Source: Carcharhinus longimanus | Lineage: Eukaryota | DNA length: 64,000 bases | Assembly (NCBI GenBank): GCA_030264375.1 | Contig: JASCQW010000081.1 | Span: forward strand, 92,542,854 to 92,606,853 | Direction of reading: 5' to 3' | Part shown: positions 1-6,000 of the stretch, piece after piece | Position numbering within the stretch: position 1 is the first letter of the stretch | How the letters are laid out: every line of letters starts with the position of its first letter | Program-made: the position numbers

Positions 1-3000
1 GGGGGGATTCTTCATCTTACCATCACTTTCTCTTCTTGTCCCGTCTGAGAAAAAAAACAAACATTTTCCATTTTTTTCAGACACGTGGCAGAAATACCGC
101 ACCACATATTCTGCATACAGAGACTGAAGGACCCAAAACCTGATTGGCTTGTTCGAAAGGCAGCGGATGATTTTATTCCAAGGTGTTTGCGTTTAAACAA
201 TAATAAAATTAACTTTCCCCCGAGGTTATATACGTTCCAGACAGCAGACAATTTATTTATGACTGATGATTTGCGAATTCCGAAGGTTGCTTCGCCAAGC
301 CGGCATCAATTAAAAACAGTAACTTTGACATTTAATTATATATTAGCGTAAACAAAGAAATAAACAACAACAAATCGGCGCATGGAATAGTTTGTCACCA
401 GACAAAATTAAAGAGACAACCGAATTGTTTGGATATTTCGACAGCATTTACGCATGAACAACATTACTCTGCATTTGCGACGCAAATCCAGGCCAGATTC
501 AACCAGATTGCCATATATCCACCCCCTCACCCCGCTCCCCAGAATGGCATAAATGTGTTTTTACAAAAACAACGCACATTTCAAGATCACTTTCACCGGT
601 TTTATAAGCTGAGTTCAAATCCGACTGTCCGATTATTAGCCCAGGCCTCACACCAATGACATACCACTGGGTCATAGCCTGCCCTGAGCTTGCGAGACCT
701 AGGTATTAATTCTCATACGACTAAAACTATAGCAGAAAATCGTAAAAACGGTGATTAATTCCCCTTTACATGTAACAAGTTTCGGTCACATGCCAGAATT
801 TGAATGTGTCAGCCATTGCCAAGGGGCGGGGGGGGGGGGGGTACGGGGGTGGGGGGGAGTCTTCCTCTTAACATCAGTTCCTTNNNNNNNNNNNNNNNNN
901 NNNNNNNNNNNNNNNNNNNNNNNNNNNNNNNNNNNNNNNNNNNNNNNNNNNNNNNNNNNNNNNNNNNNNNNNNNNNNNNNNNNGGGGGGGGGGGGGAGTC
1001 TTCCTCTTACCATCAGTTCCTTCCGTTGCCACACCGGAGAGAAAGTAAACATTTTAAAATTACATTTTTTAAACATGTGGCAGACAAATCACACCATAAG
1101 TTCTGCACACCGAATTGAAAGGTCTAAAAGCTGATTTGGATATTTGAATGTAGGCGGATGATTTTGTCACAGGGGATTTCCGTTTAATCATGAGCTAATT
1201 TAACTTTCTCCCGAGGTTGCATACGTTCTAGAAAGTGGACAATTTATTTATGCCTGATTATATTCGAATTCTGAAAGCGGTTTCGCCCAGCCGGGATCAA
1301 TTAAAACAAATAACTTTGACATTTCATTTTACATAAGCGTAAACAAAGAAGTGAACAATAACAAATCAAAGCACGAACTTGCTTGGCGCCAAATATAATT
1401 GAAGTTAATAGAGTAGAATCGGGAATGATATATGGGCGCCACTGGCCCGCAATATTTTACAGCTTCACATGAAAGGACAAAATGCCTGACAGTATGAAGC
1501 TTCACTGGTATTCAACGATGCATGTCGCACAATCATAATAGCAAGCGGAATGAAATTTTGTCCAGTGAGCTGCCCTGTAACAGTGAAATCCCCATAAAAC
1601 TCTCATTGCGAGTAATTAGCAACATGATATATAGCATAGATGGACTCGCCACAAATTTATACATGGATGTTCCTTGTAAGATTANNNNNNNNNNNNNNNN
1701 NNNNNNNNNNNNNNNNNNNNNNNATCTATATTCCAACTTTAAATCCATGCTCTTGTTCAGAAGTGGCAAGCAACTGTTTTTGTACCGTTTCACACATCAT
1801 TCGGAAGTTGCCATGTCGTGTGCTCTAATTACCTAACATTATGACTCCCACCTGTTTGCAGGTGAAAAGCCGTGAAATTTAAGGAAAATGGGTATAATTC
1901 TTGTAATAACGATGTCTGCTGTTTTAAGCATTTGAATGGGTGTTTTAATACACTGAGCTCTTCCGGAACTACTTTTGCCTCAGTAAGGTCACAGGAAGAT
2001 TTAGTGATGTTGCGGCCTTGATATTGGCGAATGTCCACTCGCTGGCGCAATTCTGTATCAAAAGTGGATGCAATGTGTGCCATTAAAACATGCAATAAAT
2101 TCACTTGCCTAATAGCATTTCGAAACCCGTACCTGCGACCCAATATCAGTCCTCGTACGTAAACTACAAAAGATACAACGACCGCTCCCAGAGAGAAAAA
2201 AAATATGTCCTGGAAGTGCAGCATTATTCCTTCAACATCACTTGACGATATTTGGAAATCCATGTGCAAGTGGTATGTGTGTAGCTTCCACGACCAATTG
2301 TAGCATTTCATCATACAGGTTTTTTTCCTTTGCGGGGGAGGGAATGTTTCCTCACCGGTGAGGCCTGCCCATTTTGCTCATCCAAAATTTTCGTCGAACA
2401 GATGGTCTTAAGGTTGCATTCCACGTAAGGTAGGAATTCGCACAGTTGCGTTCGGGAGGCAATTCTAGGATTTGTACCTAGTGATAGTGTGAGAATGGCG
2501 ATATATTTCAAATACGAAATTGCATGTGTCTCGGAGCCTATTTGACTTGATTTCGTAGCAGTTAGATACAACGGAGTTGTTTGGATATTTAGACAGCATT
2601 TTAGCGTCAAACGCATTACTCTGCATCTGGCGCGCAGGTCTAGGCCAGACTAAACAAGCATGGTATAAGTACACCTTAGAATGGCATTAACGTGTGATGT
2701 GTGCGTTTTACTGCAATTAACATATACTTCACTACCACTTTCACGGGATTTGTAAACTGCATTCAAATCCAACTGTGAAACTTGGAAGCGTTGCCTCCGA
2801 ATATTAATCCAGACATGACTATTCCAAAGACATTGCAACTGGGCCGTGGCGTCCACTTATTTTGCGAGCCTCCAGTCTGTGGTTTTAATGCGATTAAAAC
2901 TATAGACGAAAATATCGTAAACGTGGTGAACAAATCCCTTTTCTATGCAATAACTTTCAGTCAACTGCCAGAATTTGAATATACTAACCATTGCCAAGGG

Positions 3001-6000
3001 TGAAAAATGTTCGTCTTACCATCAGTATCTCCTGCTGATTCGGCTGGGAAAACGGGTGAACATTTTCAAATTACATTTTTGAGACACCTGACAGAAATAC
3101 CGCAAAACTGACAGCCCTAAAAACTGATTAGCATATTCGAATGGTCGTAAATGATTTTATAACCAGGAATTTGCGATTCGCAAGAATTAATTTGTCTTTA
3201 CTCCTAGATCATACACGTTGCTGAAAGCATGCAGTTTAGTTATGACTGATTATTTGCGAATCCTGAAGGTTTTCTCCTCAATCCGGAATCGATTCAATAC
3301 AATGATGTCTGGCAATTCATTGTCTTTTAGCACAAATGAAGAAGTGAACAGCAAGAAATGAGCTAGCGTCAAACAAAATTTAAGTTAATAGAAAAACAAA
3401 TTGGGAGAGCTACGAGAGCTAACTGCCCGAAATCATTTACAGTTTAACAAAAAAAATGACAAAATGATGAAAATATAAAGCTTCTCTGTCATTCGGCAGT
3501 GCACGAGGCTTAATCATAATAGCAAGCAGAATTAGATGCTTTTTTCTGCTGAATTGTTGCGTTAACAGTAAAACCCCAGAACATCACATTGTGACTGATT
3601 AGAAACATGCTGAGATCGGCACATAGGAAATGCAGATATGGATATTCCTTGTCAGGTCGAAGCATATAAAAGTCAGTCATGCTTCTTGCCCCATTCGTAG
3701 TCGAAATTCCAAACTAAAATGCATGGAGTTATTCAGATGTGGCGGGAAATTGTCTTCATATTGTCACACTCCTCATTTGTGGATTCACATAGATTGTGGT
3801 TTGGTTATTTGTGATTATGGCTCTCAACTTTTCGCAAATAAGTATCATTCTTGAATTAATGATGCCTGCCGCTGTAGGCATTTTAATGGACGGTTCAACA
3901 GACTTAGCTCTTCCAGAACTACCTTTGTCTCAGCAAAATCAGAGGAAGAGTCCCTGATTTGCAGACTTAATAGTGGCGAACGAATTTGCGTCCCATATTG
4001 TGAGACCTAAATATATGCCACTCAGTGGTTCAATTGTGAATAAAACATGGCAGTGTGTACAATTAAAACATGAAATAATTAACTTGCCAAGTATCCTTTA
4101 AAATATGTCGAAACCCCTACTTGCTATCCAAGTGCAATCTGCACGGGAAGTACGCTCGATATAAACAACGCGACAAGAGTAAAGCCACGGATGTACAAAA
4201 AAAAGCACAGCACCACAAATTCTGCAAACTGAGTTTGAAAGGACAACAAACTGGTTTGCATATTCGATTGGTAGTGGATGATTTTATCAGCGGGGATTTC
4301 CGTTTAATAATAAATTAAATTTCCGTTACGCCTAGGTTATATTCATTCCAGAAAACATACAATTTATTTATGACGGATAATTTGCCAATTCTGGATGTAG
4401 TTTCTCCCAGCCGGGATCAACTCAAAACATCACCTGTTTCATTTCATTGTCTATTATCGTTAATCAAAAAGTGAACAACAACAAATTGCGATTGAACTGT
4501 CTTCGCACCACTAAAAATGATATCATTTTTAAAAAAAGGCAGTGATACACGAGAGCCAACTGGTCCACAATGTTTTACCGTTCATCATGAAATGCTAAAA
4601 TAACTGAAACTATGAAGTTGTTTTTTTCTGGCATTCAGCGGTTCATGAGCGACAGTCATATCAGCAAGCACAATGTCATTTTGTCCGGTGAATTTCTGTG
4701 CAACAGTAAAATCCCAGAACACTCTCATTGTGACTAATTAGAAACATGCTGAGATAGAGACATGGGAAATTCATCTATCGATGTTTCTTGTAAGATCAGA
4801 GCGAATAAAAGTAAGAAATGCTCCATGCCCATTCCATGTATGAAATTCCAAATTTAAATGCATGACCTTTCTCAGAAGTATTAAGTGGCAGGCAATTGTT
4901 TTTATATTGTTGCATTCTTCACTCGGAGGTTGGCATGGATTTTGGATTAATTTCTGATTAGGACTCCCACGTGTTTGCAGGTAACACACACGCAATTTGT
5001 ATGCAAATAGATATAATTCTTGAATTAATGCTGCCTGACGCTGCGAGTATTTGAATGGACTGTTCAATACATATAGCTCTTCCGGAATTACTTTTGCCTC
5101 AGCGAAGTTACAGGACGATTCCCTGCTGTGCGGTCTTAATAGTGGCGAGCATTTGGACACGTAAACATGCGTCACTCACTGCCTTAGTTGTATGTAAATC
5201 GGGGCTGCAGAGTGTACCATTAAAACGCGCAATAGCTTAACATGCCAAGTGTTCTTTGTAACATCTCGAAGCTCATAGCTGCGATCCATGATCAGTCATT
5301 ACAATGGACGCACACGAGATACAGCCGCCGCTAGGAGAGAGAAAACAAATTGTGGAGTGGAATTACAGCATCGTTCCTTCAACGTCAGCCCGTGAAAATT
5401 TGGAAATCTCTACGCAAGAGCAACGTCTGTAGCTTCCACGGTCAACTGCAACAGTTCACCAGACATGGTCAAGCACCGTCTAAAAGGTGACTACGAACTG
5501 CTGTCCACAACAGAAGAATAGGTAATTAACGTAAATAAAGGAAACCGAAAATAAATTAGGCCTACACGTGCTTGTTGTCGAACCATGCAATTGTTTCTTT
5601 AAATCTGTAAAAAAAAAATCGTGATAAATTCTATACGCTGAGTGGTTTAGGACAGCATTTCACAACGATTGCACAGAATTAAATATTTATTTAAAAACCC
5701 TTGGCCGTGCAGAAAGATTGACTGATAACTGTTTCTTTGATTTGAGAATGCAGGTTTCCAGGTTAAACAATGATCATCGTCTTTGCATAAATGTATATGA
5801 ATTCACATTATATTGTTTGATTCCGTAGCGTCAAAGTTTTTGATCCGTTTGCTCGAAGTTTGTCTGGGGAGGATTTTAATCGTTTGTTGTCATTTGTAGC
5901 ACCTCAAATTTAGTTCGGCTTCTGCCAATGGAACTCGATATCAAAAATGGTTTCCATCTTTTGCCACCTATAATTACAAGTCTTGATGACGTAATTTTCA

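What the first reader, a model, noticed from the sequence alone, without database searches (positions are those of the whole stretch)
1..5450. Exon birth and death in progress: tandem duplication multiplies a 24-nt microexon cassette
Seen: a 1.2-1.9-kb unit is repeated in degenerate form. Its X block carries an intact exon at 21-44 (DGTRRESD) and 3020-3043 (AESAGDTD), an exon with acceptor AG>CG at 1011-1034 (GVATEGTD), and no exon in the copy at ~4210. The exon ends (TGATG|gtaaga) and the 24-nt length are kept while the exon interiors differ strongly, apparently more than the flanking introns. Inference: this shows how the array grows, and may indicate diversifying selection on the peptide modules.
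[Added by the scan's program, not by the reader: the finding's places include an assembly gap (unread letters, written N; its length is only estimated) at 884 to 983, 1685 to 1723. Whether the letters on both sides are continuous or in frame is not known: test that first.]
Basis: partly seen in the sequence, partly recalled or inferred. Interest (0 to 1): 0.7.

Follow-up and report, generated by a model that had tools for sequence, protein, structure and literature searches.

The report
Old tandem repeat with exon-like segment
A 1-2 kb stretch of apparently non-coding animal DNA was copied head to tail several times long ago, and three copies carry a 24-base segment that looks like a tiny exon, but nothing available shows that it is ever spliced.

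Summary
The repeat is real. Positions 1-5465 hold four partial, same-orientation copies of a 1-2 kb unit, 66-75% identical (K2P 0.30-0.45), found nowhere else in the window. On the minus strand, 21-44 and 3020-3043 are 24-nt segments with a pyrimidine tract, CAG and G|GTAAGA. Copy 1011-1034 has CG at the acceptor. The copy at ~4210 lacks the whole exon-bearing head.

The copies are old, not "in progress". The fourth copy lost the exon part as a block, not by decay. The interior is more diverged than the average flank (6 of 19 against 58% invariant, P about 0.02), but the upstream pyrimidine tract is equally diverged (4 of 13). This suggests a fast-changing low-complexity zone rather than selection on peptides. 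The invariant 11-nt donor run is not significant alone (P = 0.29).

Gap 884-983 is flanked by 37-of-39 identical sequence, so its sides overlap or hide a near-identical copy. No coding gene was found in the window apart from retroelement fragments. Whether these are exons cannot be decided without transcripts or orthologues. I put non-functional pseudo-exons at about 0.5 and real cassette microexons at about 0.3.

The parts
1..413 (-). Block X, copy A. It carries the exon-like segment at 21-44 and begins at a G run at the window start.
   Evidence: 73.9% identical to 991-1404 over 417 nt, E 1.5e-68. Families D1, D2, D5, D6, D8.
21..44 (-). 24-nt exon-like segment A: 14/15 pyrimidines, then CAG, 24 nt, then G|GTAAGA. 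Open in phases 0 and 1.
   Evidence: Sequence read. Passes the strict rule. Composition.
412..825 (-). Block Y, copy A. It follows X_A directly; blocks W and spacer are absent from this unit.
   Evidence: 65.5% identical to 2564-3000 over 452 nt. K2P 0.385.
827..883 (.). G-rich run followed by the start of another X block, up to the edge of gap 1. It holds the last 12 nt of an exon copy, with the donor GT read as TT.
   Evidence: 845-883 is 37 of 39 identical to 984-1022. 867-876 matches the donor motif with 1 mismatch.
884..983 (.). Assembly gap of 100 N. Its two flanks duplicate each other, so continuity is unknown.
991..1404 (-). Block X, copy B.
1011..1034 (-). Exon-like segment B. The donor is intact. 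The acceptor dinucleotide reads CG at 1036-1035, or the AG is deleted, since the unit is 2 nt shorter than in A and C. It lies about 50 nt from a contig end.
1405..2317 (-). Block W, copy B. It contains gap 2 (1685-1723) and a 182-codon open frame at 1829-2377 that shows no sign of coding.
   Evidence: 67% identical to 4211-5465. ORF tests.
2564..3000 (-). Block Y, copy B. It is preceded by a 246-nt spacer (2318-2563) with no repeat match.
3010..3359 (-). Block X, copy C.
   Evidence: 67.8% identical to 11-375.
3020..3043 (-). 24-nt exon-like segment C: 13/15 pyrimidines, then CAG, 24 nt, then G|GTAAGA.
3360..4130 (-). Block W, copy C. It is truncated relative to B and D.
   Evidence: 3121-4130 matches 4248-5288 at 68.2%.
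4131..4206 (.). 76-nt junction between copies C and D. It has no significant match to the X head or the W tail.
4207..5465 (-). Copy D: block X from the equivalent of A position 96 onward (so no exon part), followed by a full block W.
   Evidence: 96-375 matches 4207-4486 at 73.9%. 1092-2317 matches 4211-5465 at 67.0%.

Best explanation
Positions 1-5465 are an old, decayed local tandem duplication of DNA that shows no sign of coding. The ancestral unit was about 2 kb: blocks X, W, a spacer and Y, best kept in copy B (991-3000). It was multiplied head to tail, most likely by unequal crossing-over or replication slippage (inferred). It was then remodelled by loss of W plus spacer in copy A, and by a rearrangement of about 1.13 kb period that produced copies C and D with a junction inside X.

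The ancestral unit carried, on the minus strand, a 24-nt stretch with a pyrimidine tract, CAG and a consensus donor. Three copies inherited it. On this reading it is a pseudo-exon, that is, a splice-site look-alike of the kind that is abundant in animal genomes. Its pyrimidine-rich and purine-rich low-complexity core changes faster than its surroundings because of mutation, not because of selection on a peptide.

Shown: the repeat, its architecture, its age relative to its own copies, the state of each splice-like site, and the extent of the divergent zone. Inferred: the mechanism of duplication, and that the element is not spliced.
For: 1. Repeat and architecture. All pairwise K2P distances are 0.30-0.45 with no young pair.
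2. No coding context. Of 150 stop-free frames of 71 aa or more across the window (150 of 165 frames of 70 aa or more), Pfam matched only RVT_1 (2 frames), one sub-threshold Steroid_dh and two matches at E about 0.008-0.009.
3. The largest non-retroelement frame, 182 codons inside block W, has no Pfam match, a best PDB E of 1.3 and a best Atlas score of 0.76. Its substitutions are spread evenly over codon positions: 36/118, 31/120, 35/117 against copy C, and 61/182, 54/182, 67/181 against copy D. Copies C and D also carry frame-breaking indels.
4. Exon-like segments defined loosely are at chance level: 12 on the minus strand against 10.95 +/- 3.56 simulated, with 44 of 100 simulations reaching 12.
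5. The invariant 11-nt donor run is not unusual for this alignment. 2881 of 10000 column permutations give a run at least as long.
6. The divergent zone covers 32 columns from the pyrimidine tract through the interior (10 invariant). The split is 4 of 13 intronic and 6 of 19 'exonic'. Composition is kept: 13-14 of 15 pyrimidines and 15-20 of 24 purines.
7. There is no third-position excess in either open frame.
8. One copy is dead as assembled, and one lacks the element altogether.
9. Pseudo-exons are estimated to outnumber real exons by an order of magnitude (passage in PMC1935003).
Against: 1. Under a strict rule (11 or more of 13 pyrimidines, CAG, G|GTAAG, 6-120 nt) the whole window has only 3 candidates, all on the minus strand: 21-44, 3020-3043 and 12338-12355. 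Simulations give 0.43 +/- 0.62, and 2 of 200 reach 3. Two caveats apply: the rule was shaped on this finding, and the first two candidates are copies of each other.
2. Keeping AG in A and C plus GTAAG in all three has a probability of about 0.03 at the identities seen in the flanks.
3. The length is a multiple of 3, and two frames are open in all three copies.
5. Neutral decay does not by itself predict an interior more diverged than the flanks (binomial P 0.02). My explanation needs the added assumption of higher mutability in low-complexity sequence.
Confidence: 0.5

Rival explanations
1. The 24-nt segments are real, symmetric cassette microexons of a gene transcribed from the minus strand, with later exons beyond the left end of the window. 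Tandem duplication of an intron-exon-intron unit multiplied the cassette. Copies A and C are usable, B has lost its acceptor, and the peptide modules evolve fast.
For: A and C have strong canonical sites, and the donor is the longest invariant run of the block. The strict-rule count is 3 against 0.43 expected. Neutral retention of the core sites is about 0.03. The 24-nt length keeps the frame, and phases 0 and 1 are open in all three copies. The interior is purine-rich, as exonic enhancers often are (15-20 of 24; the enhancer link is recalled). A further strict candidate at 12338-12355 lies on the same strand, is open in phase 1 and closed in phase 0.
Against: No transcript evidence could be sought. 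No other coding exon was recognised in 64 kb. Excess divergence is shared by the intronic pyrimidine tract, so it is not evidence for selection on peptides. There is no codon-position signal. One of three copies is dead, and loose-rule candidates are at chance level. The prior is low, because pseudo-exons far outnumber real exons.
Confidence: 0.32
2. A relic. The segments were exons of a gene that has since decayed or been lost. The splice sites survive only because too little time has passed for all of them to be hit.
For: This would explain good sites in two copies, a dead site in one, no constraint in the interior, and no recognisable coding exon nearby.
Against: At K2P 0.30-0.45 between copies, unconstrained sites should mostly have been hit (retention about 0.03). 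No remnant of any other exon was found. With the data in hand this cannot be told apart from the pseudo-exon reading.
Confidence: 0.13
3. An assembly artefact: the repeat or some of its copies were created by mis-assembly.
For: Only for one spot. The two sides of gap 884-983 are 37 of 39 identical, next to G homopolymers. The window also begins in the same G run.
Against: The four copies differ by 25-34% and by many indels. Artefactual duplicates would be near-identical.
Confidence: 0.03

Closest known systems
Intronic or intergenic pseudo-exons (splice-site look-alikes that are not spliced)
   Same: A pyrimidine tract, AG and a consensus donor bracket a short stretch. There is no sequence constraint inside it and no recognisable coding context.
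   Different: The element is present at homologous positions in three old copies, with the donor invariant. It is also stronger than all but one other candidate in the window.
Tandem exon duplication giving homologous cassette or mutually exclusive exons (for example the human events surveyed in PMC9741552; abstract and two passages seen)
   Same: The segments are homologous, on the same strand, and 24 nt long in A and C. They were generated by local tandem duplication of the exon together with its flanks.
   Different: Known events are defined on expressed exons whose protein sequences are recognisably homologous. Here the 8-residue readings share only the last two residues, expression is unknown, and one copy lacks an acceptor.
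Schistosome micro-exon genes (MEGs; passages of PMC4350168)
   Same: The exons are very small and symmetric, so any subset could be included without breaking the frame. Exon duplication is recorded in one MEG family, and evolution is fast.
   Different: [quoted passage not shown] No gene, signal-peptide exon or transcript is known here. The organism is an unidentified animal with retroelement fragments, not shown to be a flatworm.
SRRM3/4-dependent neural microexons of vertebrates (passages of bioRxiv 10.1101/2024.09.17.613571)
   Same: The length is within 3-27 nt and divisible by 3.
   Different: Those microexons typically have the pyrimidine tract set back from the AG, with a UGC between them (57 of 73 and 51 of 71 in that paper). 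Here the tract abuts the CAG and the nearest TGC is 46-61 nt upstream. They are also highly conserved, whereas these interiors are not conserved between copies.
Macrosatellite-like or kilobase-unit tandem duplications of non-coding DNA
   Same: Copies of a 1-2 kb unit lie head to tail in the same orientation, at or near an assembly break.
   Different: There are only four partial copies. They are deeply diverged and rearranged, with no sign of homogenisation.

Membership tests
Tandem exon duplication (homologous cassette or mutually exclusive exons) | Neighbouring segments on one strand that descend from one ancestral segment | tested here: met
   The three segments occupy the same columns of the X-block alignment, and the flanks are 66-74% identical.
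Tandem exon duplication (homologous cassette or mutually exclusive exons) | Same length and same phase in the copies | tested here: inconclusive
   A and C are 24 nt. B is 24 nt only in an ungapped reading, because the anchor-to-donor distance is 45 against 47 nt.
Tandem exon duplication (homologous cassette or mutually exclusive exons) | The copies are exons of mature transcripts | not testable with these tools
   No transcript or eukaryotic sequence collection was available.
Tandem exon duplication (homologous cassette or mutually exclusive exons) | Recognisable similarity of the encoded peptides | tested here: not met
   Interior identity is 9/19, 10/19 and 9/19 nt. The 8-residue readings share only the final two positions (read).
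SRRM3/4-dependent neural microexons | Length 3-27 nt, usually divisible by 3 | tested here: met
   24 nt.
SRRM3/4-dependent neural microexons | UGC between the pyrimidine tract or branch point and the AG, with the tract set back from the AG | tested here: not met
   The nearest TGC is 46 (A), 48 (B) and 61 (C) nt upstream of the segment. The tract abuts the CAG. The paper notes that UGC is frequent but not strictly required.
SRRM3/4-dependent neural microexons | Strong conservation of the exon and its flanks between species | not testable with these tools
   No orthologous sequence was available. Between paralogous copies the interior is the least conserved part.
Micro-exon genes (schistosome type) | Most of the coding region is made of very small symmetric exons | tested here: inconclusive
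   There are three 24-nt symmetric candidates and one of 18 nt on the same strand. No gene model, first exon or last exon could be identified.
Micro-exon genes (schistosome type) | Secreted products and variation generated by alternative splicing | not testable with these tools
   This needs transcripts or proteomics.
Pseudo-exon | Splice-site-like flanks around a short segment | tested here: met
Pseudo-exon | No coding constraint inside the segment | tested here: met
   6 of 19 columns are invariant against 57.6% in the flanks. Differences by codon position are 7, 14, 8 (phase 1) and 14, 8, 7 (phase 0). Power is low.
Pseudo-exon | Absent from mature RNA | not testable with these tools
   No expression data.
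Kilobase-unit tandem duplication | Head-to-tail copies in one orientation, beyond chance | tested here: met
   E-values run from 1e-29 to 1e-106. All 20 non-self rows are on the same strand and inside 1-5465.

The most novel reading that the evidence does not exclude
An animal gene outside the flatworms is built like a micro-exon gene. A run of symmetric 18-24-nt exons on the minus strand (12338-12355, 3020-3043, 21-44, continuing beyond the window) has been expanded by tandem duplication of whole intron-exon units. Splice signals are held fixed while the 8-residue modules are free to change, and copies are born and lost.
Probability: 0.2. Interest if true: 0.6.

Novelty: new member of a known kind. 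Interest (0 to 1): 0.27.

Why it matters
If the segments are spliced, this locus would show intron-exon units being multiplied and inactivated inside one gene. It would be a rare case of a micro-exon array outside the parasites where such genes were described, and it could be tested directly with transcript data and copy-number surveys.

If they are not spliced, which I think somewhat more likely, the locus is an ordinary decayed tandem duplication. In that case it is a useful caution. Perfect-looking splice sites that survive in paralogous copies, and an 'exon' interior that diverges faster than its flanks, can both arise without any exon. The test for diversifying selection must include the adjacent intronic low-complexity tract.

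Tried and rejected
1. Coding potential of the 182-codon frame in block W (1829-2377, minus). Pfam gave nothing, the best PDB E was 1.3 and the best Atlas score 0.76. There is no codon periodicity, and copies C and D carry frame-breaking indels. Rejected as a chance frame.

2. Finding the host gene.
- A Pfam scan of long three-frame translations was not accepted because they contain stop codons.
- I then scanned 150 of the 165 stop-free frames of 70 aa or more.
- Sub-sets were scanned to locate one weak hit.
- The result was RVT_1 twice, plus Steroid_dh at 21079-21309(+) with 22.0 bits against a cut-off of 22.6, and PDB 7bw1 at E 0.62.
- No host gene was found.
- Motif greps for that family found nothing useful.

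3. Enrichment of exon-like segments on the minus strand under a loose rule: none.

4. Transposon hallmarks. There are no terminal inverted repeats at unit borders (2 short chance pairs), no tRNA-like heads, no Rfam family and no small-period tandem array in 1-5465.

5. Assembly artefact as the origin of the copies: rejected because they are 25-34% diverged.

6. Protein searches with the putative exons. Each encodes 8 residues, below the 20-residue minimum of every protein tool, so an exon-by-exon search was not possible. The joined model was not made or searched.

7. Not used, because they cannot bear on a eukaryotic intron-exon question: genome contigs (bacteria and archaea), the phage, plasmid and E. 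coli collections, and structure or complex prediction.

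
Full report
**What the window is.** The window is 64 kb of eukaryotic DNA.
- It is 39.7% G+C with CpG observed/expected 0.70.
- It has 12 runs of N totalling 1267 bases.
- The only clear protein-family matches among 150 stop-free frames of 71 aa or more are two reverse-transcriptase fragments, at 16815-17585 and 30248-30730, both on the plus strand.
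- No Rfam family and no tRNA was found.
- I could not name the organism, and nothing pointed to human.
- No collection of eukaryotic genomes or transcripts was available. Relatives from elsewhere could therefore not be brought in, and expression could not be examined.

**The gaps, tested first.**
- Gap 884-983 sits between the end of one repeat unit and the start of the next.
  - The 39 bases before it (845-883) and the 39 after it (984-1022) are 37 of 39 identical.
  - The letters on the two sides are therefore not a simple continuation of each other. Either the two contig ends overlap and the 100-N gap is a placeholder, or a near-identical extra copy is hidden there.
  - One mismatch lies in a G homopolymer. 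The other turns the donor GT of the exon-like segment into TT (867-876).
  - Frame or continuity across this gap cannot be assumed. Copy B (1011-1034), including its disputed acceptor, lies within about 50 nt of a contig end.
- Gap 1685-1723 lies in block W, far from any putative exon. The distance between conserved anchors on its two sides is 47-50 nt in copy B, counting the 39 N, against 48-51 nt in copies D and C. Its flanks are collinear.
- The window itself begins in the same G run that borders gap 1. This suggests, by inference only, that the assembly breaks at these homopolymers and that the array may continue to the left.

**The repeat.** A comparison of 1-5600 with the whole window gives 20 non-self alignments, all on the same strand and all inside 1-5465. 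In plus-strand coordinates the blocks are:
- Copy A: X_A 1-413, Y_A 412-825, then a G run.
- Copy B: X_B 991-1404, W_B 1405-2317, a 246-nt spacer, Y_B 2564-3000.
- Copy C: X_C 3010-3359, W_C 3360-4130.
- A 76-nt junction, 4131-4206.
- Copy D: X_D 4207-4486, W_D 4487-5465.

Copy B is the most complete unit, at about 2 kb, and copy A lacks W and the spacer. Copies C and D repeat with a period of 1127-1139 nt. Copy D starts at the equivalent of A position 96, and the 76 nt before it match neither the exon-bearing head of X nor the tail of W. Pairwise K2P distances are 0.30-0.45 in every block and for every pair, with identity 67-75%.
- There is no young pair, so the duplications are old and roughly coeval.
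- The one exception is the unresolved 39-nt gap flank.
- Unit borders have no inverted repeats, so nothing marks the unit as a transposon.

**The exon-like segments.** On the minus strand, 21-44 and 3020-3043 are each preceded by 14/15 and 13/15 pyrimidines and CAG. Each ends in ATG followed by GTAAGA. 1011-1034 has the same donor but CG in place of AG. The conserved AAAATGTT anchor lies 45 nt from the donor in B against 47 nt in A and C, and MAFFT puts the 2-nt gap on the AG. A substitution and a deletion are thus equally possible. As assembled, B has no acceptor either way. Each putative exon is too short (8 residues) for any protein search, and I did not build or search the joined model.

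**Is this more than chance?**
- Splice-like flanks alone are not. Under a loose rule (9 or more of 13 pyrimidines, AG, GTRAG, length 9-60 and divisible by 3), the minus strand has 12 candidates. Simulated sequence gives 10.95 +/- 3.56, and 44 of 100 simulations reach 12.
- Under a strict rule modelled on this finding (11 or more of 13 pyrimidines, CAG, G|GTAAG, 6-120 nt), the window has 3 candidates on both strands together, all on the minus strand: 21-44, 3020-3043 and 12338-12355. Simulations give 0.43 +/- 0.62, and 2 of 200 reach 3. This looks notable. However, the rule is post hoc, and the first two candidates are copies of one ancestor.
- TGATGGTAAGA is the longest invariant run in the three-way alignment of X, in which 210 of 364 complete columns are invariant. 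Even so, 2881 of 10000 column permutations give a run at least as long.
- At the identities seen in the flanks, keeping AG in A and C and GTAAG in all three has a probability of about 0.03.
- Together these numbers lean towards constraint on the splice signals but do not establish it. The locus was also picked out of a genome-wide scan.

**Exon interior against intron.** The 19 interior positions, excluding the conserved TGATG, are identical at 9, 10 and 9 positions in the three pairs. The flanks are 74.1% (283/382), 69.7% (230/330) and 65.5% (222/339) identical. Only 6 of 19 interior columns are invariant in all three copies, against 57.6% of 330 flank columns. Only 2 of 312 flank windows of 19 columns are as low, and the binomial P is 0.020.

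The windows with 7 or fewer invariant columns form one continuous zone from alignment column 364 to 400, the only others being two overlapping windows at columns 34-53. This zone begins in the pyrimidine tract. Between the AAAATGTT anchor and TGATG, 10 of 32 columns are invariant. Of these, 4 of 13 lie in the tract plus AG and 6 of 19 in the interior. The excess divergence therefore does not stop at the exon boundary.

Composition is kept while sequence is not: 13-14 of 15 pyrimidines upstream and 15-20 of 24 purines inside. That is what slippage-prone low-complexity sequence would give, and also what a working splice unit without peptide constraint would give. Differences by codon position are 7, 14, 8 in phase 1 and 14, 8, 7 in phase 0. 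This gives no frame signal and no power. Diversifying selection on peptide modules is therefore not supported, though 19 nucleotides cannot exclude it.

**Surroundings.**
- The longest non-retroelement frame of the window lies inside block W on the same strand (1829-2377, 182 codons).
  - It has no family, structure or Atlas relative.
  - Its substitutions against copies C and D are spread evenly over codon positions.
  - Copies C and D break the frame.
  - I take it for a chance frame.
- One frame at 21079-21309 (plus strand) scores just under the Pfam cut-off for Steroid_dh (22.0 against 22.6 bits). It aligns weakly to residues 185-240 of human SRD5A2 (7bw1, E 0.62). It may be a decayed fragment or chance.
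- No exon of a host gene for the microexons was recognised.
- The 18-nt candidate at 12338-12355 is on the same strand, 9.3 kb upstream in the direction of transcription. It is open in phase 1 and closed in phase 0, and it holds three CpGs. It is the only hint of further microexons.

**Comparison with known kinds.**
- The architecture works like tandem exon duplication: a segment and its flanks copied in place. Membership in that class needs expressed exons with homologous peptides. The first is untestable here and the second is not met.
- It differs from SRRM3/4-type neural microexons. In those the pyrimidine tract is set back from the AG with a UGC in between, seen in 57 of 73 and 51 of 71 cases (passages read). 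Here the tract abuts the CAG and the nearest TGC is 46-61 nt away.
- It resembles schistosome micro-exon genes in having small symmetric exons, with duplication recorded in one family (passages). But no gene model exists here.
- The default class is the pseudo-exon, estimated to outnumber real exons tenfold (passage).

**Verdict.**
  - The duplications are old.
  - The fourth copy lacks the exon as a block.
  - The divergent zone includes the intronic tract.
Tandem duplication did multiply the cassette-like element, but that it is an exon, that the process is ongoing, and that peptides are under diversifying selection are not shown.
- My odds are:
  - about 0.5 for a non-functional pseudo-exon in non-coding repeat DNA;
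  - about 0.3 for real cassette microexons;
  - about 0.13 for a relic of a lost gene;
  - about 0.03 for an assembly artefact as the source of the copies.
- Transcript data for the species would settle the question at once.

Noticed in passing
window 12338-12355 (minus strand): An 18-nt exon-like segment with 11/13 pyrimidines, CAG and AAG|GTAAGG. It is the only strict-rule candidate in the window besides the two in the finding. It is on the same strand, open in phase 1, closed in phase 0, and has three CpGs in 18 nt.
   Followed up: partly
window 845-883 and 984-1022: The two flanks of the 100-N gap are 37 of 39 identical, next to G homopolymers. The contig ends either overlap or hide a near-identical copy. 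The left version reads TT where the donor GT should be.
   Followed up: yes
window 21079-21309 (plus strand): A 77-codon open frame with a just-sub-threshold Pfam match to Steroid_dh (E 1.8e-4, 22.0 bits against 22.6). It aligns weakly to residues 185-240 of human SRD5A2 (7bw1, E 0.62). It may be a decayed gene fragment or chance.
   Followed up: partly
window 16815-17585 and 30248-30730 (plus strand): Two reverse-transcriptase (RVT_1) fragments, E 8.1e-19 and 1.6e-8. These are retroelement remnants and the only clear protein-family matches in the window.
   Followed up: partly
window 1829-2377 (minus strand): A 182-codon open frame inside repeat block W, the longest non-retroelement frame of the window. 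It has no relatives and no coding signature, and it is broken in the other two copies.
   Followed up: yes
window 1018-1045 and 3027-3056 (plus strand): Read on the other strand, copies B and C also show a weaker exon-like pattern: a pyrimidine tract plus CAG (the reverse of the donor region), then 28 or 30 nt, then GTAAAC or GTGAAC. Copy A lacks it. This is a reminder that such patterns come easily. Read by eye and not scored.
   Followed up: no
window 1-5465 against the whole window: CpG observed/expected is 0.85 in the repeat region against 0.70 for the window. Both show much milder depletion than in mammals (the mammalian comparison is recalled).
   Followed up: no
window 14428-14497: A short (GATG)n / (TGGA)n-type microsatellite, the only tandem array reported by Tandem Repeats Finder in the window.
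   Followed up: no
window 6001-8000: A strong negative GC skew (-0.257) and AT skew (-0.114) in one 2-kb bin just right of the repeat. Unexplained.
   Followed up: no
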